A DNA stretch of 64,000 nucleotides from an uncultured Actinomycetes bacterium (GTDB lineage Bacteria; Actinomycetota; Thermoleophilia; UBA2241), in the NCBI GenBank assembly GCA_963725665.1, contig CAVRZA010000008.1, positions 96,001-160,000 of the forward strand, given 5' to 3'. The translations under genes and the position numbers were made by a program. The notes beneath the pieces were generated by a model. It was not told where the DNA came from. It saw nothing but the letters and a program-made list of their open reading frames with translations, and did not search any database. Shown in pieces: positions 10,228 to 63,249 of the stretch (the first letter of the stretch is position 1; each line of letters starts with the position of its first letter).

Positions 10228-10274
10228 GGAGCGCGCGGGAGGGCGGCTCGTCGAGCCGCCCTCCCGCGCGCTCC
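10228..10274. terminator. Perfect 23-bp inverted repeat (1-nt spacer) after yajC; probable terminator hairpin without U-tail
   Basis: GGAGCGCGCGGGAGGGCGGCTCG-T-CGAGCCGCCCTCCCGCGCGCTCC. Confidence 0.55.
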
Positions 10275-10345
10275 AGCCATGCAGGGTTTCGCCTGCGGCG
10301 CCAGAAAATAGTGCGGAACACCCGCGATCCAAGGAGCTGGGGCCA

Positions 10346-11104
10346 ATGGCTCACGTGCTTGCGTTCGCCAACCAGAAGGGCGGCGTAGCCAAGACGACCT
10401 CGACCCTGAACCTGGGCGTAGCGCTCAGGGAGCGCGGCCTGCGCGTGCTGGGCGTCGACATGGACCCGCAGGGCAACCTGACGATGAGCCAGGGGATCGA
10501 CCCAGAGACGCTCGACAAGAGCATGTACGACGTACTCGTGCACCACACGCCGATCGAGGACGTGATCGTGGAGCGCGAGATCGACATCGCCACGTCGACG
10601 ATCGACCTCGCCGGGGCCGAGATGGCCCTCTCGACGATGATCGGCCGGGAACGCACCCTCGAGCGCGCCCTCTCCCACGTCAAACGGCGCTACGACTACA
10701 TCCTCATCGATACCCCGCCCTCGCTCGGACTTCTGACTATCAACGCGCTCACCGCCTCTGAGGGTGTCATCGTGCCGGTGCAGTGCGAGTACCTGTCCCT
10801 GCGTGGTCTGCTCCAGCTCGAGCACACGCTGCGCATGATCCGCGACAACCTCAACCCCAAGGTGCGCATCAAGGGCATCCTGCCGACGCTGCTCGATGCG
10901 CGTACGCTGCACGGCAAGGAGGCCGTGGAAGTGCTGCGCGAGAACTACGGGTCCCTCGTCTTCAACACGACGGTACGCAAGACGATCAAGTTCGCCGAGG
11001 CGCCGGTGAAGGGCTCGTCGGTGCTGAGATACGACCCCAAGAGCGCTGCCGCGGAGGCCTACCGGGCCCTTGCCGGGGAGGTATTGAATGGGAAGTCGCG
11101 CTAG
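10346..11104 (+). CDS. ParA/Soj family ATPase (orphan, no adjacent parB)
   Basis: NQKGGVAKTT deviant Walker A, DMDPQGNLT, IDTPPSLG, PVQCEY, AEAP; AAGGAG before ATG 10346. Confidence 0.93.
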   Translation: MAHVLAFANQKGGVAKTTSTLNLGVALRERGLRVLGVDMDPQGNLTMSQGIDPETLDKSMYDVLVHHTPIEDVIVEREIDIATSTIDLAGAEMALSTMIGRERTLERALSHVKRRYDYILIDTPPSLGLLTINALTASEGVIVPVQCEYLSLRGLLQLEHTLRMIRDNLNPKVRIKGILPTLLDARTLHGKEAVEVLRENYGSLVFNTTVRKTIKFAEAPVKGSSVLRYDPKSAAAEAYRALAGEVLNGKSR

Positions 11105-12275
11105 CATGCGGGACGGCCTGAACGAGCTCTTCCGTCGCAGCGAGGAGCGCGGCGGCGGTGAACCGCCCGACCGCTCGCGCGACGACCCCTTCGCGTCGGG
11201 GCGCGGCTATGTGACCACCATCAAGGTGGTCGGGGTCGGCGGCGCCGGCACGAACGCCGTCAACCGCATGGTCGACGAGGGCATCCGCGGCGTCGAGTTC
11301 ATCGCCGTAAACACAGACACTCAGGCTCTCGAGATGTGCGACGCCGATGTGAAAGTGCATATCGGTCAAGAGATCACCCACGGCCTGGGCGGGGGCGCTG
11401 ACCCCGATGTCGGTCGCGAAGCCATGGAGGCCTCGCGCGATCAGGTCAAACAGGCGCTGCGCGGCTCCGACATGGTGTTCATCACGGCCGGGGAGGGTGG
11501 CGGCACAGGTACGGGAGCCTCGCCTGTCATCGCCGCCGTGGCGCGGGAGCTCGACGCCCTCACAGTAGCCATCGTGACGCGGCCGTTCACCTTCGAGGGC
11601 CGCAAGCGTTCGCAGCAGGCATCCGAGGGCATCGAAGAGCTGCGCCGCATGGCCGACGCCGTCATCATCATCCCCAACGAGCGCCTGCTGCAGGTCGTCG
11701 AGCGCACGACCACGATGGTGGAGGCGTTCCGGTTCGCCGACGACGTGCTGCGCCAGGGCGTGCAGGGCATCACCGACCTCATCACGGTGCCTGGCCTCAT
11801 CAACCTCGACTTCGCCGACGTGCGCACCATCATGAAGGATGCCGGCACGGCGCTCATGGGCATCGGCTCGGCGACCGGCGACACCAGGGCCGGCGAAGCG
11901 GCCACTCAGGCAATCGCCTCGCCGTTGCTCGAGACGTCGATCTCGGGCGCGCGCGGGATCCTCCTGAACATCACCGGCGGCAAGGACCTGTCGCTCTACG
12001 AGGTCAACGACGCCGCGCAGACGATCGCCGAGGCCACCCACGACGAGGCCAACATCATCTTCGGCGCCGTGGTCGACGAGCGTCTCGAGGGTCGCATGAC
12101 GGTCACGGTGATCGCCACCGGCTTCGATGGGCAGTCGCTGGCGCTGGAGCCGTCAAGCCGGGAGGAGAACGAGCCAAGCGGACCTCGCCGGCCTACGGAG
12201 CCGATCTTCGAGCCACCGCCGCGCTTCGACGATGAGCTCGACGTGCCGTCGTTCGTGCGCCGGCCCGAGGAGTAG
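11088..12275 (+). CDS. ftsZ: Cell division protein FtsZ with N-terminal extension
   Basis: GVGGAGTNAVNRM, GGGTGTG signature, INLDFADV T7 loop, C-terminal DELDVPSFVRR; GGAGG 6 nt before ATG 11088. Confidence 0.96.
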   Translation: MGSRASMRDGLNELFRRSEERGGGEPPDRSRDDPFASGRGYVTTIKVVGVGGAGTNAVNRMVDEGIRGVEFIAVNTDTQALEMCDADVKVHIGQEITHGLGGGADPDVGREAMEASRDQVKQALRGSDMVFITAGEGGGTGTGASPVIAAVARELDALTVAIVTRPFTFEGRKRSQQASEGIEELRRMADAVIIIPNERLLQVVERTTTMVEAFRFADDVLRQGVQGITDLITVPGLINLDFADVRTIMKDAGTALMGIGSATGDTRAGEAATQAIASPLLETSISGARGILLNITGGKDLSLYEVNDAAQTIAEATHDEANIIFGAVVDERLEGRMTVTVIATGFDGQSLALEPSSREENEPSGPRRPTEPIFEPPPRFDDELDVPSFVRRPEE

Positions 12276-12284
12276 TCGCCCCGC

Positions 12285-13139
12285 ATGACGGCCATCGGCA
12301 CGGCAGCGACGCGACCTCTCGGGGCCGCGCCCTCAGGCTTGCCGCAGCTTGAGTTCGACCTCGACGTCTTCCACGGGCCTTTCGACCTGCTTGTTACGCT
12401 GATCCTGCGCGAGGAGATCGACCTCTGGGAGGTCAGCGTCTCGCGTCTCATCGCCGAGTACGTCGTGCACTTGGCCGACAGCGGCGAGTTCGATCTCGAG
12501 GCGACCTCACAGTTCGTCGTGCTGGTCGCGTCGCTGCTCGAGATGAAGTCGCGCCTCCTCGTGACCGGCGACCTGTTCGCTGACGAAGAGGAGCCCAACG
12601 ACGAGGGGACGGCCGAGGAATTGCTGGCCGCGCTCGTGCGTTACACGCAGTTCAGGCGCGCCGGCGAGGCGCTTGCCGGCGGCTACGCTGAGCACGCCGG
12701 TCGCGTCTACCGGCAGGCGCCGGTGCCGGCGCGCTTCTTGCGCTCATCGCAGGACGGTCCGACGCTCGCCTCGGCGCTGCTCGTCTCGGCTCTGACGCCG
12801 CTCTTGCGTGAGCCGCCGGCGCCCGACGCGAGCCACATCACCGACCTGGCCGTATCGCTCGTGGCGGAGCTGCGCCGCCTGCGCCGGCGGCTCATCGACG
12901 GTGGGTCGTTCACGTTCGCCGCCGTGGCGCCCCGCGACCGGCTGCGCAAGGCGCTCACGTTCTTCGCTCTGCTGGAGCTGCACAGCCGGGGCGAAGTGCG
13001 CCTCGCGCAGACGCGGCCGTTCGCGGATATCACGGTGACGCCGACGGACGGTCGGGCGCCCGCGAAGGGTGGGCGTGACTGGTCGAGGGGTGGACGCGAC
13101 GGGACGAGGCGTGATCTCACGCTGGTGTCCGAGAGGTGA
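12285..13139 (+). CDS. scpA: Segregation/condensation protein A (kleisin)
   Basis: FHGPFDLLVTLI, LLEMKSRLL, TFFALLEL. Confidence 0.92.
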   Translation: MTAIGTAATRPLGAAPSGLPQLEFDLDVFHGPFDLLVTLILREEIDLWEVSVSRLIAEYVVHLADSGEFDLEATSQFVVLVASLLEMKSRLLVTGDLFADEEEPNDEGTAEELLAALVRYTQFRRAGEALAGGYAEHAGRVYRQAPVPARFLRSSQDGPTLASALLVSALTPLLREPPAPDASHITDLAVSLVAELRRLRRRLIDGGSFTFAAVAPRDRLRKALTFFALLELHSRGEVRLAQTRPFADITVTPTDGRAPAKGGRDWSRGGRDGTRRDLTLVSER

Positions 13140-13200: not shown

Positions 13201-13773
13201 ATGGATGAAGTGACACGACTGACCGAGGCCATCCTCTTCGTCTCACCGCGACCGGTGTCGCGCGAGGAGCTCGCCGCCGCGTGCGAGCTCGAGGTGGCCC
13301 GCGTGGAGGAGGCACTCGCTGAGCTGCGCCGCGAGTACGACGGTCGCCACGGCATCGAGCTGCGAGCGGTGGCGGGAGGCAACGCCTTCGCCGTAGCTCG
13401 CGACTGCGAGGCGGCGGTCGAGCGCTTCGCCGGCGCCCGCCGCCCCGACGAGCTGTCGCCGGCGTTGCTCGAGGCGTTGAGCGTCGTCGCCTACCTGCAG
13501 CCGGCGACACGCGCTGAGGTGGCCCAGGTGCGCGGCGTATCCTCGGATTGGGCGTTGGCGGCCCTCGAGGAGCGCGGCCTCGTCGAAGAGGCGGGCCGCG
13601 CCGACTCGCCGGGCGCCCCGATCCTCTACCGCACGACGCGGCTCTTCCTGCAGCTCTTCGGACTGCACGACCTCGGCGAGCTACCGCCGCTGGCCGAGTT
13701 CGAGCTCACGGCGGCCGAGGTCGACGAGCTGCGCTCGCGACTCCAGGCGAATGCCGAGAGGAGGGGCGCCTGA
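13201..13773 (+). CDS. scpB: Segregation/condensation protein B
   Basis: EAILF, LSPALLEALSVVAYLQPATRAEV..RGV, PILYRTT..FL..FGL. Confidence 0.93.
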   Translation: MDEVTRLTEAILFVSPRPVSREELAAACELEVARVEEALAELRREYDGRHGIELRAVAGGNAFAVARDCEAAVERFAGARRPDELSPALLEALSVVAYLQPATRAEVAQVRGVSSDWALAALEERGLVEEAGRADSPGAPILYRTTRLFLQLFGLHDLGELPPLAEFELTAAEVDELRSRLQANAERRGA

Positions 13774-62016: not shown

Positions 62017-62706
62017 GTGACCGAGCATCGCGGGAGCGCCGAGAGCGTGCGCGAGCACTTCGCCGCGGTGCGGGCGCGGGTCGACGAGGCGGCGGCCGCG
62101 GCGGGGAGATCCGGCGCAGAGGTCGAGATCCTCGTGGCCACGAAGTACGTCGATGTCGACGGCATGCAGGTGCTGATCGATGCCGGGGTCGGCCTGGTGG
62201 GCGAGAACCGGGCGCAGGATCTGGCGGCCAAGCACGAGCGCTACGGCGACGGGTTCGTGTGGGACTTCATCGGCCACCTGCAGAGTCGCAAGACGAAGAT
62301 CGTCCTGCCGCTGGTGCGCCTCATCCACAGCGTCGACAGCGTGAGCGTCGTAAAGGAGTTGCAGGCTCGCTCGACGAACACCACGAGAGCCCTGCTCGAA
62401 GTGAACATTGGCGGGGAAGAGACGAAGAGCGGGGTCCCGATCGAGCGGGTGGACGTGTTCTTGGAGGAGGCGGCCACGTACGACCGCGTCGAGTTCGCCG
62501 GGCTCATGTGCATGCCGCCCCTGGGCTCCGACGCATCGTCGTCGGCGCCCTACTTCGCCCGTACGCGAGAGCTCGCGGAACGCCTTTCGGCGGCGTGGCG
62601 GGGCCGATATACTTTCGCGGTACTGTCGATGGGTACGAGCGCGGACTACGACGTCGCCGTCAGAGAAGGGGCGACCATCGTGCGTGTGGGAAGCGTCTTG
62701 TTCTGA
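62017..62706 (+). CDS. yggS: PLP homeostasis protein YggS
   Basis: VATKY, GENRAQ, FIGHLQS.K, GLMCM, LSMG.S.DY..A..EGAT.VRVG. Confidence 0.95.
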   Translation: MTEHRGSAESVREHFAAVRARVDEAAAAAGRSGAEVEILVATKYVDVDGMQVLIDAGVGLVGENRAQDLAAKHERYGDGFVWDFIGHLQSRKTKIVLPLVRLIHSVDSVSVVKELQARSTNTTRALLEVNIGGEETKSGVPIERVDVFLEEAATYDRVEFAGLMCMPPLGSDASSSAPYFARTRELAERLSAAWRGRYTFAVLSMGTSADYDVAVREGATIVRVGSVLF

Positions 62707-62724
62707 GGGCGACCTGGAGGAGCG

Positions 62725-63249
62725 ATGGGTCTGGGCGATACGTGGCACAAGGTGATGGTCTACTTCGGCATCGCCGAAGAGGATGAGTACGACGAGGACG
62801 AGACGCTGGCGCCGCACGATGAGCTCGAGCGTTCCTACCAGGAGCGCCCCAACGTGCGCAAGCTGAACCGCGGCCGCTCGCGCTCCGACTACGACGACAT
62901 CTTCGCCGACGAGCAGCCGCGGCCGGTGCCGCAACGCGTCGTGCGGCCGATCGAGGCGCCGCGTCAGCAGCGCGTCGAGGTACACCTCGTGGTGCCCAAG
63001 AACTTCAACGACGCGCAGCAGATCGCCGATAAGTTCAAGGTCGATATCCCGGTGATCATCAACCTACAGGGCGCCGAGGTGGAGCTCTCGAAGCGGCTGA
63101 TCGACTTCGGCAGCGGGCTTACCTACGCCCTTGACGGCGGCATGCAGCGCGTGGCCGACAAGGTGTTCCTCTTGACCCCGCGCAACGTCGAGGTCTCGGC
63201 GGAGGAGAAGGCCCGCCTCATGGAAAAGGGCTTCTTCAACCAGTTCTGA
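62725..63249 (+). CDS. sepF: Cell division protein SepF
   Basis: N-terminal amphipathic helix (WHKVMVYFGI), P..FNDAQ, PVIINL, RLIDF.SG, FLLTP. Confidence 0.95.
   Translation: MGLGDTWHKVMVYFGIAEEDEYDEDETLAPHDELERSYQERPNVRKLNRGRSRSDYDDIFADEQPRPVPQRVVRPIEAPRQQRVEVHLVVPKNFNDAQQIADKFKVDIPVIINLQGAEVELSKRLIDFGSGLTYALDGGMQRVADKVFLLTPRNVEVSAEEKARLMEKGFFNQF

What the first reader, a model, noticed from the sequence alone, without database searches (positions are those of the whole stretch)
10346..12275. Orphan ParA coupled to an FtsZ carrying a ParB-like N-terminal peptide: candidate direct division-positioning system
Seen: parA overlaps ftsZ by 17 nt, and ftsZ has its own GGAGG. No parB is adjacent. 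FtsZ has about 43 residues before the GTPase core: MGSRASMRDGLNELFRRS, then a charged, Pro/Gly-rich linker. The GTPase motifs and C-terminal peptide are intact. ParA keeps the basic positions used by Soj for nonspecific DNA binding (LDAR, RKTIK). Established: ParB/Spo0J stimulate ParA through a short basic N-terminal peptide of type (K/R)xLGRGLxAL(I/F). ParA-like ATPases position FtsZ in several bacteria (MinD, MipZ, PomZ, Corynebacterium PldP); in the Min, MipZ and Pom systems the activator is a separate protein. Inference: the activator peptide here is fused to FtsZ, so FtsZ polymers could be the cargo that triggers ParA release from the nucleoid and self-position. The operon continues into scpAB, linking division to condensin.
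Basis: partly seen in the sequence, partly recalled or inferred. Interest (0 to 1): 0.85.

Follow-up and report, generated by a model that had tools for sequence, protein, structure and literature searches.

The report
FtsZ paralog carrying a ParA-partner tag
A whole class of soil actinobacteria keeps a second copy of the division protein FtsZ, encoded directly behind a ParA-type positioning ATPase, whose tip carries the short peptide that in other actinobacteria marks that ATPase's partner protein, so the ATPase probably handles FtsZ directly.

Summary
parA (10346-11104) overlaps ftsZ (11088-12275) by 17 nt, and scpA and scpB follow. This FtsZ has about 44 extra N-terminal residues. It is not the only FtsZ: a canonical ftsQ-linked FtsZ1 and a normal parA-parB pair lie elsewhere in the genome.

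The parA-ftsZ2 pair is found across the class Thermoleophilia. All 49 ParA-linked FtsZ loci examined carry an N-terminal tag of the form R-x-S-[ML]-x(2-4)-L-x-[ED]-L-F-R-x-T. None of 46 ftsQ-linked loci has it.

The decisive new result comes from other Actinomycetota. There, the gene directly after the related parA (the ParA2/PldP clade) encodes a small unannotated protein that begins with the same tag (RRASLPGADELFRxT). This partner was found in 48 of 201 sampled genomes and in 0 of 41 Thermoleophilia. In family f27 it sits between parA and scpAB, the position FtsZ2 occupies here.

The tag is therefore best read as the ParA2-docking peptide, with FtsZ2 in the partner's place. I found no paper describing this arrangement.

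The parts
10228..10274 (+). Perfect 23-nt inverted repeat (GC-rich hairpin) after the yajC stop; a likely transcript end that sets the parA operon apart
   Evidence: (MFE -90.9 kcal/mol, z -5.5). In same-family loci a strong stem stands at the same place with a different sequence.
10280..10336 (+). Conserved upstream region: TGCAGGG (10280-10286), about 17 nt, then a GAA-containing box, and AGGAG (10332-10336) before the parA ATG. Candidate own promoter and ribosome-binding site.
   Evidence: GCAGG and GAA are invariant in 18 of 18 aligned same-family upstream regions. The consensus promoter scan found nothing.
10346..11104 (+). parA: a ParA2/PldP-clade deviant Walker-A ATPase, 252 aa, with KGGVAKT
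11075..11081 (+). GGGGAGG Shine-Dalgarno for ftsZ2, embedded in the last parA codons
   Evidence: A GGGAGGTG or GCGAGGTG box stands at the same place in the same-family loci.
11088..12275 (+). ftsZ2: a full-length FtsZ paralog, 395 aa, overlapping parA by 17 nt
11097..11141 (+). N-terminal tag, residues 4-18 (R-A-S-M-R-D-G-L-N-E-L-F-R-R-S); proposed ParA2-docking peptide
   Evidence: (L11, L14 and F15 invariant in 40 of 40; R4, S6, M7, G10, R16 and T18 at 90% or more).
11142..11216 (+). Variable Pro/Gly/acidic linker, residues 19-43
   Evidence: The stretch before the G-V-G-G motif ranges from 44 to 175 residues across 40 orthologs.
11220..12128 (+). FtsZ GTPase core and FtsZ_C domain
   Evidence: G-box in 39 of 40 and T7 loop in 40 of 40 orthologs.
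12228..12263 (+). C-terminal peptide DDELDVPSFVRR (partner-binding CTP)
   Evidence: A CTP-like motif is present in 37 of 40 orthologs.
12285..13139 (+). scpA
13201..13773 (+). scpB

Best explanation
The window holds a two-gene module that is conserved across the class Thermoleophilia. A ParA2/PldP-clade ATPase is translationally coupled to a second, complete FtsZ (FtsZ2). The first ~18 residues of FtsZ2 are the docking tag of that ATPase's partner protein.

In other Actinomycetota the same tag heads a small protein (113-175 aa in the loci read here, about 190 aa in family f27) encoded directly after the related parA. In Thermoleophilia that small protein was not found, and FtsZ2 carries the tag instead.

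Proposed mechanism. ATP-bound ParA dimers sit on the nucleoid. FtsZ2 filaments, alone or mixed with FtsZ1, display many tags on flexible linkers. The tags bind at the ParA dimer and stimulate ATP hydrolysis and ParA release. The FtsZ2 assembly is thereby tethered to the nucleoid and positioned relative to it. FtsZ2 then connects to the ordinary divisome through its FtsZ core and C-terminal peptide.

Shown here: gene anatomy, paralogy, class-wide linkage, purifying selection on the tag, the same tag on the partner of related ParAs, and the complementary distribution of partner and FtsZ2.

Inferred: tag-ParA binding, ATPase activation, nucleoid binding by this ParA, and any role in placing the division site.
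For: Linkage:
- 22 of 22 same-family loci show parA-ftsZ2-scpA.
- 9 of 9 and 18 of 18 ParA-linked FtsZ loci of other Thermoleophilia carry the tag.
- In one locus of another family that I examined (L128), the pair is flanked by unrelated genes.

Specificity of the tag:
- 0 of 46 ftsQ-linked FtsZ loci and 0 of 27 FtsZ loci with neither neighbour have it; 9 of 9 parA-linked loci do.
- In a six-frame scan of the whole genome the motif hit FtsZ2 plus three sites that I take to be chance matches.

Selection:
- Residues 9-18 are constant while their codons vary (for example 4 Gly codons, 4 Leu codons, 4 Thr codons), and residues 19 onward vary freely.
- The tag is present in 40 of 40 orthologs and a CTP-like motif in only 37 of 40.

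Partner homology:
- In 14 of 20 best out-of-class ParA loci, the ORF directly after parA starts with [KR]RA[SR]LPGA[DE]ELFRxT. In 0 of 5 ParB-linked loci does it do so.
- A regex written from the FtsZ2 sequences alone found 13 of these 14.
- hhalign aligned only the two N-termini (22 columns, E 0.0037).
- 100 of 150 representatives of the partner family carry the tag core in their first 40 residues.

Complementary distribution:
- The partner profile hit 48 of 201 genomes across the phylum and 0 of 41 Thermoleophilia. The control gave 5 of 5.
- In all 20 genomes shared, the partner lies directly after a ParA hit.

Same slot: family f27 shows parA-partner-scpA-scpB.

Trees:
- ParB-linked Soj proteins split from the rest at 100/99 support, and the FtsZ2-linked ParAs form one clade at 100/99.
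- FtsZ2 forms one clade at SH-aLRT 97.

Principle from the literature:
- Activators of ParA/MinD ATPases are modular, with a short N-terminal peptide grafted onto a cargo-binding domain (PMC7993993, passages read).

Context: no MinC or MinE match in this 97.5% complete genome.
Against:
- The profile match between the tags is short: hhalign probability is only 9%.
- In the window's family the tag is not net basic: 4 K/R and net charge 0 in the first 20 residues.
- The central basic residue of the ParB motif has no exact counterpart in the tag.
- In the ParA tree the FtsZ2-linked clade is sister (93/87, not starred) to a third subclade that is followed by a small zinc-ribbon ORF. It is not nested within the partner-linked subclade, so strict orthology to the partner-linked ParA2 or to PldP is not shown.
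- The fold and function of the small partner's C-terminal domain are unknown: no Pfam, NCBIfam or PDB match.
- A canonical FtsZ1 exists, so FtsZ2 may be accessory.
- The true start codon (codon 1 or codon 7) is not determined experimentally.
- Two same-family genomes, G002 and G023, show FtsZ2 in pieces. Whether this is an assembly fault or gene decay was not resolved.
Confidence: 0.55

Rival explanations
1. The N-terminal peptide tunes FtsZ2 polymerisation or binds another divisome protein, as reported for the N-terminal peptide of FtsZ in heterocyst-forming cyanobacteria. On this view the parA neighbourhood only reflects co-expression.
For: FtsZ N-terminal peptides with roles in polymerisation exist (PMC6175996; title and start of abstract seen in the listing). 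No binding data exist for the present pair.
Against: The same peptide heads a non-FtsZ protein after related ParAs in other classes, so its function follows the ParA and not FtsZ. It is absent from 46 of 46 ftsQ-linked FtsZ loci.
Confidence: 0.1
2. ParA-FtsZ2 acts on the chromosome rather than on division. FtsZ2 would be a filament used with ParA for DNA or condensin placement, having replaced a DNA-binding partner, and would play no part in the Z-ring.
For: The slot lies next to scpAB in the window's family and in other classes. The replaced partner may bind DNA, but the only support is weak Atlas leads to RHH and ParB-C families, all below 0.9. Mycobacterial Rv1708 was reported to bind ScpA and ParB (PMC10482377; abstract and passages read).
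Against: FtsZ2 keeps a CTP-like peptide in 37 of 40 orthologs and is 67% identical to FtsZ1 over the core, which points to shared divisome partners. scpAB linkage was seen in 0 of 18 loci of other Thermoleophilia families.
Confidence: 0.12
3. ParA acts as an inhibitor, in the manner of MipZ or MinCD. It would hold FtsZ2 by the tag and block assembly over the nucleoid, a form of nucleoid occlusion, rather than positioning a cargo.
For: A weak MipZ Pfam match (42 bits) covers part of the ParA. No MinC or MinE was found.
Against: The tag architecture (N-terminal peptide, then flexible linker, then multimeric cargo) is that of ATPase activators (PMC7993993). There is no MinC-like partner. The ParA clusters with the ParA2/PldP-type proteins.
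Confidence: 0.13
4. The conserved 5' end reflects constraints at the nucleic-acid level (gene overlap, translational coupling, RNA structure) and not a functional peptide.
For: Codons 1-6 overlap the end of parA, and a Shine-Dalgarno box lies within parA.
Against: Codons 9-18 lie beyond the parA stop and show synonymous variation with fixed residues. The tag persists where the overlap geometry differs and in long-linker forms.
Confidence: 0.02

Closest known systems
ParG-ParF of plasmid TP228 and other type Ib partition pairs (small centromere-binding protein with a flexible N-terminal activating tail, plus a small ParA)
   Same: A small ParA is followed by a partner whose extreme N-terminus is a short conserved peptide on a disordered linker. 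That is the architecture of the actinobacterial small partner found here. It is cited as the model for activation in PMC7993993 and PMC12462528 (passages read).
   Different: In the window the cargo domain is a full FtsZ, not a DNA-binding fold. The small partner's own fold could not be confirmed as ribbon-helix-helix.
[quoted passage not shown]
   Same: A short N-terminal peptide, with basic residues followed by G-x-x-x-L-hydrophobic, is encoded directly after parA. The genome's own ParB reads ...RALGRGLSALI.
   Different: LG(R/K)GL is absent. There is no ParB fold, no CTPase domain and no parS. The ParA lies outside the ParB-linked Soj clade.
PomXYZ of Myxococcus xanthus
   Same: A nucleoid-bound ParA-like ATPase positions FtsZ positively, and the activator uses a 22-residue N-terminal peptide (PMC7993993).
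   Different: There FtsZ is recruited through the separate proteins PomX and PomY. Here the tag sits on an FtsZ itself and only two genes form the module.
PldP (Corynebacterium glutamicum) / Rv1708 and MSMEG_3743 / ParA2 SCO1772
   Same: All are second, non-Soj ParAs of Actinomycetota encoded next to scpAB. PldP forms foci at septa and its loss gives minicells (PMC3989709, passages). The best solved relatives of the window ParA are 4pfs, 5ihp and 5if9, which share KGGVAKT. That these entries are mycobacterial is recalled and comes from no call.
   Different: No partner or cargo is established for PldP (10.1101/2025.07.02.662783, passages). One parA-scpA-scpB locus of that type examined here (L158) has no tagged ORF, and the motif pattern was found in 0 of 5 genomes of its family.
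MinCDE and MipZ
   Same: ParA/MinD-family ATPases that govern where FtsZ assembles.
   Different: They act as inhibitors through separate proteins or directly, and FtsZ carries no activator tag. MinC and MinE were not found here.
Other FtsZ duplications (truncated paralogs in Hyphomicrobiales; tandem ftsZ-ftsZ in two actinobacterial families seen here)
   Same: A second FtsZ is maintained beside the dcw copy (10.1101/2025.09.29.679267, passages).
   Different: Those paralogs are mostly truncated or tandem, without a ParA and without the tag. FtsZ2 here is complete and gains an N-terminal module.

Membership tests
FtsZ (TIGR00065 / PF00091 + PF12327) | Tubulin-type GTPase domain with G-box GGGTG[ST]G and T7 loop NxDxxD | tested here: met
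   (427.8 bits against a cut-off of 295.2). G-box in 39 of 40 and T7 loop in 40 of 40 orthologs, window included.
FtsZ (TIGR00065 / PF00091 + PF12327) | C-terminal conserved peptide after a variable linker | tested here: met
   DVPSFVRR in the window. A CTP-like motif is present in 37 of 40 orthologs.
Canonical division FtsZ of the dcw cluster | Encoded after ftsQ (or ftsA) in the dcw cluster, with a short N-terminus | tested here: not met
   The window copy follows parA. The ftsQ-linked copy lies on another contig. The two copies form separate clades.
ParA/MinD deviant Walker-A ATPases | Deviant Walker A with the signature lysine (KGGxxKT) and conserved Asp motifs | tested here: met
   N9-T18 (NQKGGVAKTT), D38, D40 and D122 are invariant in 40 of 40 sequences. 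Pfam AAA_31 scores 199 bits.
Chromosomal Soj/ParA of ParABS | Adjacent parB; membership of the ParB-linked clade | tested here: not met
   No parB is adjacent. The ParB-linked ParAs split off at 100/99 support. No NCBIfam equivalog reaches its cut-off.
ParA2/PldP-type second ParA of Actinomycetota | Non-Soj clade, and a locus next to scpA-scpB | tested here: met
   Clade of 60 rows. scpAB lies downstream in the window and in 22 of 22 same-family loci. Strict orthology to PldP itself is inconclusive, because the FtsZ2-linked clade is sister to another subclade at 93/87 support.
ParB-type ParA-activating peptide | (K/R)x0-2 LG(R/K)GLxAL(I/L) at the N-terminus | tested here: not met
   The window reads RASMRDGLNELFRR, whereas ParB of the same genome and five others read LG[RK]GL..L[IL]. 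Only the outline is shared.
Tag of the ParA2-clade partner (defined here) | [KR]-x-[SR]-[LM]-x(2-4)-[AL]-x-[DE]-L-F-R-x-T within the first ~20 residues of the gene directly after parA | tested here: met
[quoted passage not shown] | The peptide binds the ATPase dimer and stimulates ATP hydrolysis | not testable with these tools
This needs biochemistry.
MinD | C-terminal amphipathic membrane-targeting helix, with MinC and MinE partners | tested here: not met
   The ParA ends ...AGEVLNGKSR with no such helix (read directly). MinC and MinE gave 0 matches. TIGR01968 scores 47.5 bits against a cut-off of 212.9.
Ribbon-helix-helix centromere-binding proteins (for the small partner of other classes) | beta-alpha-alpha fold that binds DNA as a dimer | tested here: inconclusive
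   The pattern H-[DE]-E-K-[VI]-T-[FV]-Y followed by helix-like segments is suggestive. There is no Pfam, NCBIfam or PDB match. Atlas leads to RHH and ParB-C families are all below 0.9.

The most novel reading that the evidence does not exclude
FtsZ2 filaments are both the cargo and the activator of a nucleoid-bound ParA. This would be a two-protein, self-positioning division-ring system, created when the cargo domain of a ParG-like partner was exchanged for a whole FtsZ. The same tag would define a previously unrecognised partner family that explains what the 'orphan' ParA2/PldP of Actinomycetota works with.
Probability: 0.35. Interest if true: 0.9.

Novelty: new variant of a known kind. Interest (0 to 1): 0.8.

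Why it matters
How actinobacteria place their division site without Min or Noc systems is unresolved. The cargo of their near-universal second ParA (PldP, ParA2) was still unknown in a 2025 preprint (10.1101/2025.07.02.662783).

This locus gives two testable handles. First, a conserved ~15-residue tag marks the protein encoded after that ParA in many Actinomycetota; the family has 7,491 database proteins, and every name shown among the 120 best is 'hypothetical' or an evident mis-call. Second, in one whole class the tag sits on FtsZ itself, which links this ParA clade genetically to the division ring.

If binding is confirmed, this would be the simplest known ParA-based FtsZ positioning system. 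It would also be a natural example of a 'luggage tag' transplanted from one cargo to another.

Tried and rejected
The fold of its C-terminal domain and the shape of the tag therefore remain unmodelled.
- No RNA holder was listed among public runs, so no reads were laid.
- The small partner was searched against Pfam, NCBIfam and PDB sequences. Nothing usable came back; the MexA and designed-repeat hits are chance matches.
- A search for longer proteins carrying the partner tag found only P0124, a frameshifted ParA+partner gene call.
- The FtsZ2 tip was searched against proteins of similar length. All 13 hits are FtsZ, so no other cargo was found this way.
- The DNA pattern for PGA[DE]ELFR gave 0 matches in 5 genomes of the family with a direct parA-scpA-scpB arrangement.
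- The consensus promoter and terminator scan was uninformative.
- A repeat search upstream of parA and of two partner loci found no convincing centromere-like repeats.
- The hydrophobic-moment calculation was uninformative.
- SepF duplication does not track FtsZ2: 8 of 31 class genomes have two copies.
- I rejected the idea that two FtsZ genes are a wider actinobacterial trait. Outside the class, 8 of 186 sampled genomes gave two matches. Four of the five I examined are tandem dcw duplicates without a ParA or the tag, and the fifth is a weak fragment. G076, G162 and G210 were not examined.
- Supplementary files of papers were not consulted. Figure 7 of PMC7993993 and Table S2 of 10.1101/2022.06.09.495121 may list activator peptides or docking residues that bear on the comparison.
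Full report
ANATOMY. parA runs from 10346 to 11104 and ftsZ from 11088 to 12275, so they share 17 nt. GGGGAGG lies 6 nt before the ftsZ ATG. Pfam and NCBIfam name the genes: ParA-type ATPase, FtsZ (TIGR00065, 427.8 bits, cut-off 295.2), ScpA and ScpB. Upstream lie queA, tgt and yajC, and an S4/pseudouridine synthase gene follows scpB. The Tubulin domain starts at residue 45, so about 44 residues precede the core. The G-box, the T7 loop and a C-terminal peptide are present. A perfect 23-nt inverted repeat follows yajC. After it comes an upstream block conserved within the family. parA-ftsZ-scpAB may therefore be its own transcription unit.

NOT THE ONLY FtsZ, NOT THE ONLY ParA. The window lies in a 3.73 Mb assembly, 97.5% complete. 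That assembly holds a second ftsZ on another contig, directly after ftsQ, with a short N-terminus and 67% identity over the core. I call the dcw copy FtsZ1 and the window copy FtsZ2. The genome also has an ordinary parA-parB pair, whose ParB starts with ...RALGRGLSALI. No MinC or MinE match was found. Two SepF genes exist.

A TRAIT OF THE WHOLE CLASS. Record titles of the closest public contigs name uncultured Thermoleophilia. All 41 genomes searched (the window's own, 24 of the same family and 16 of the same class) gave at least two FtsZ matches. In two same-family genomes, G002 and G023, the FtsZ2-type copy is in pieces. In a phylum-wide sample of 201 genomes, 14 of 14 same-class genomes had two matches. 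Only 8 of 186 outside the class did, and 2 had none. Of those 8, four are tandem ftsZ-ftsZ pairs after ftsQ without a ParA or the tag, one is a weak fragment, and three were not examined.

In 22 of 22 same-family loci the order is parA-ftsZ2-scpA. yajC lies upstream in the 20 loci that reach far enough. In other Thermoleophilia the non-dcw FtsZ also follows parA directly: 9 of 9 public contigs and 18 of 18 fetched loci. In those loci scpA and scpB were not found within about 3.5 kb (0 of 18). One locus is flanked by a cupin gene and a gamma-glutamyltranspeptidase gene. The conserved unit is therefore the pair parA-ftsZ2.

THE TAG. An alignment of 40 FtsZ2 proteins shows L11, L14 and F15 invariant, with R4, S6, M7, G10, R16 and T18 at 90% or more. 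The next 20-150 residues are unalignable. The motif is roughly [KR]-x-S-[ML]-[RK]-[DE]-[GS]-(P/A/G)-L-x-[ED]-L-F-R-x-T. It is present in 40 of 40 orthologs, while a CTP-like motif is kept in only 37 of 40.

Within the family, residues 9-18 stay fixed while their codons vary, and from residue 19 onward residues vary freely (27 sequences). This shows selection on the peptide and not on the RNA. Codons 1-6 overlap parA. However, R4 and S6 are also kept where the overlap geometry differs, which favours the upstream start. Public gene calls use the same 395-residue form.

Controls support specificity. Among 82 other FtsZ loci, the tag is in 0 of 46 ftsQ-linked, 0 of 27 with neither neighbour, and 9 of 9 parA-linked. 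A six-frame scan of the whole genome hit FtsZ2 plus three sites that I take to be chance matches.

THE KEY RESULT: THE SAME TAG ON ANOTHER PROTEIN. I took the 20 best ParA matches outside the class (47-54% identity) and read what follows parA. In 14 of 20 loci the next ORF begins [KR]RA[SR]LPGA[DE]ELFRxT; one further pair, in family f27, has V in place of the A. It starts within a few bases of the parA stop. The motif is followed by a disordered stretch and a conserved ~68-residue C-terminal domain. These proteins are 113-175 residues long. None of 5 ParB-linked loci has the motif. Thirteen of the 14 were found with a pattern I had written from FtsZ2 sequences alone.

A profile-profile comparison of the FtsZ2 and partner alignments aligned only the two N-termini (22 columns, E 0.0037, probability 9%). 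The partner family is large and unnamed. A word-based search gave 7,491 proteins, and among the 120 best listed the only names are 'hypothetical protein' and two 'capsid protein' labels. An exhaustive search gave 653 representatives, and 100 of the best 150 carry the tag core in their first 40 residues. Many of the remainder are truncated gene calls or variants.

The partner profile hit 48 of 201 genomes across the phylum: 14 of 14, 12 of 13, 10 of 11, 4 of 4 and 4 of 9 in five families. It hit 0 of 15 Thermoleophilia in that sample and 0 of 41 in a class sample. The control on five genomes whose sequences built the model gave 5 of 5. In all 20 genomes that appear in both samples, the partner lies directly after a ParA hit (my comparison of coordinates).

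In a family with 7.5-9.2 Mb genomes the order is parA-partner-scpA-scpB. In two other families it is parA-partner-M50 peptidase-scpA. FtsZ2 in the window thus occupies the partner's slot.

TREES. In a 66-row ParA tree, the ParB-linked Soj proteins separate at 100/99 support from a clade of 60. That clade has three parts: the partner-linked ParAs together with one direct parA-scpA-scpB locus (99/97); a subclade followed by a small zinc-ribbon ORF; and the FtsZ2-linked ParAs (one clade, 100/99). The last two are joined at 93/87, which is not starred. The best solved relatives are 4pfs, 5ihp and 5if9, which share the unusual KGGVAKT, ahead of the Soj structures. In a quick 60-row FtsZ tree, the 25 FtsZ2 sequences form one clade (SH-aLRT 97) apart from the dcw copies.

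WHAT IS KNOWN.
- Activators of ParA/MinD ATPases are modular. A short N-terminal peptide, often basic, is grafted onto a domain that holds the cargo. Peptides of 20-52 residues suffice for ParB, SopB, MinE and PomX (PMC7993993, passages). The peptide has been called a luggage tag (10.1101/2022.06.09.495121, passages).
[quoted passage not shown] Juxtaposed peptides act more strongly through avidity (PMC12462528, passages).
- Actinobacteria carry a second ParA next to scpAB. PldP forms septal foci and its loss gives minicells (PMC3989709). ParA2/SCO1772 is said to be present in all actinobacteria (PMC4255298). Rv1708 was reported to bind ScpA and ParB (PMC10482377). The cargo was still open in 2025 (10.1101/2025.07.02.662783).
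- My searches found no paper on a Thermoleophilia FtsZ paralog, on a ParA-tagged FtsZ, or on the small partner. These searches cover only the held library.

MECHANISM, WITH ITS STATUS.
- Shown: a ParA of the non-Soj actinobacterial clade is co-encoded and probably co-translated with a complete FtsZ paralog. That paralog bears, on a flexible linker, the peptide that marks the partner of related ParAs. The partner itself was not found wherever FtsZ2 exists.
- Inferred: the tag docks on the ATP-bound ParA dimer and stimulates hydrolysis. The ParA binds the nucleoid; basic residues at the positions used by Soj are kept (R186, K212), but the mapping of those positions is recalled from Hester and Lutkenhaus as cited in PMC3989709. 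FtsZ2 polymers present many tags and so act as a high-avidity cargo. The assembly is positioned over the nucleoid and seeds or guides the ring through its FtsZ core and C-terminal peptide.
- An inhibitory reading (nucleoid occlusion) and a chromosome-centred reading are not excluded.

LIMITS. No interaction test was possible. The tag similarity rests on a short motif plus position and synteny. The window family's tag is not net basic. Orthology of this ParA to PldP proper is unsettled. The partner's C-terminal fold is unknown. The FtsZ1 gene of this assembly has a one-base frame break before its C-terminal peptide. If that break is real, it would make FtsZ2 the only copy with that peptide in this organism; if it is an assembly error, it means nothing.

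VERDICT. This is a new variant of the ParA-plus-activator kind, with FtsZ itself as the tagged partner. It comes with a previously unannotated partner family for the second ParA of Actinomycetota.

Noticed in passing
L142:2255-2617, L153:2328-2669, L149:1128-1466, L175:1595-2158 and others: An unannotated small-protein family of Actinomycetota is encoded directly after the second ParA. It has an N-terminal RRASLPGADELFRxT tag, a disordered linker and a conserved ~68-residue C-terminal domain (H-[DE]-E-K-[VI]-T-[FV]-Y...DRGRIVREA). A word search gave 7,491 database proteins. No Pfam or NCBIfam model matches it. It is probably the missing partner of ParA2/PldP-type ATPases.
   Followed up: partly
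L002:2490-2590 (G000 contig C4, dcw ftsZ): The canonical FtsZ1 of this assembly has a one-base frame break in its C-terminal linker, so its ...DIPSFLKDR peptide lies in another frame. Whether this is an assembly error or a real loss was not resolved.
   Followed up: partly
window 10228-10274: A perfect 23-nt inverted repeat lies between yajC and parA (z -5.5 against shuffles). Same-family genomes have a strong stem at the same place with unrelated sequence, as expected for a terminator-like element.
   Followed up: partly
window 10280-10345: An upstream block is conserved in 18 of 18 aligned same-family loci: TGCAGGG, about 17 nt, then a GAA box, then AGGAG before the parA ATG. It is a candidate promoter for the parA-ftsZ2 operon and was missed by the consensus scan.
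   Followed up: partly
L058, L070, L086, L101, L128, L131, L132 (FtsZ2 linkers); L127, L129, L133, L134: The long N-terminal linkers of FtsZ2 in other Thermoleophilia hold conserved islands: E-[ET]-V-E-H-V-x-[DE]-[WF] and LEPLPEPPPRLHR in one group, and IPSPQERLRxAFSSDIP in another. These may be further binding motifs.
   Followed up: no
L143:2256-2489, L156 (also L152 and L157, from unpublished genomes): A third ParA subclade, sister to the FtsZ2-linked ParAs, is followed by a small zinc-ribbon ORF. Its N-terminus (for example G-R-Y-A-L-Y-S-A-T-E) loosely resembles the end of the tag (A-E-L-F-R-A-T-E). This may be a third cargo type.
   Followed up: no
L165-L172 (genomes G083, G124, G137, G221): Two actinobacterial families outside Thermoleophilia carry tandem ftsZ-ftsZ duplicates after ftsQ. 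They have no ParA and no tag, so this is an independent FtsZ duplication.
   Followed up: partly
window 62017-63249: A yggS-like PLP-binding gene and sepF (174 aa) lie here, far from the dcw ftsZ. A second sepF lies on contig C2. Two SepF copies occur in 8 of 31 class genomes and do not track FtsZ2.
   Followed up: partly
L119, L120, L122 (family f2 FtsZ2): In one Thermoleophilia family FtsZ2 has lost the C-terminal peptide but keeps the N-terminal tag.
   Followed up: no
P0124: A database protein of 344 aa is a ParA fused in frame to the whole small partner after a break near the ParA C-terminus. It is most likely a sequencing frameshift and not a natural fusion.
   Followed up: partly
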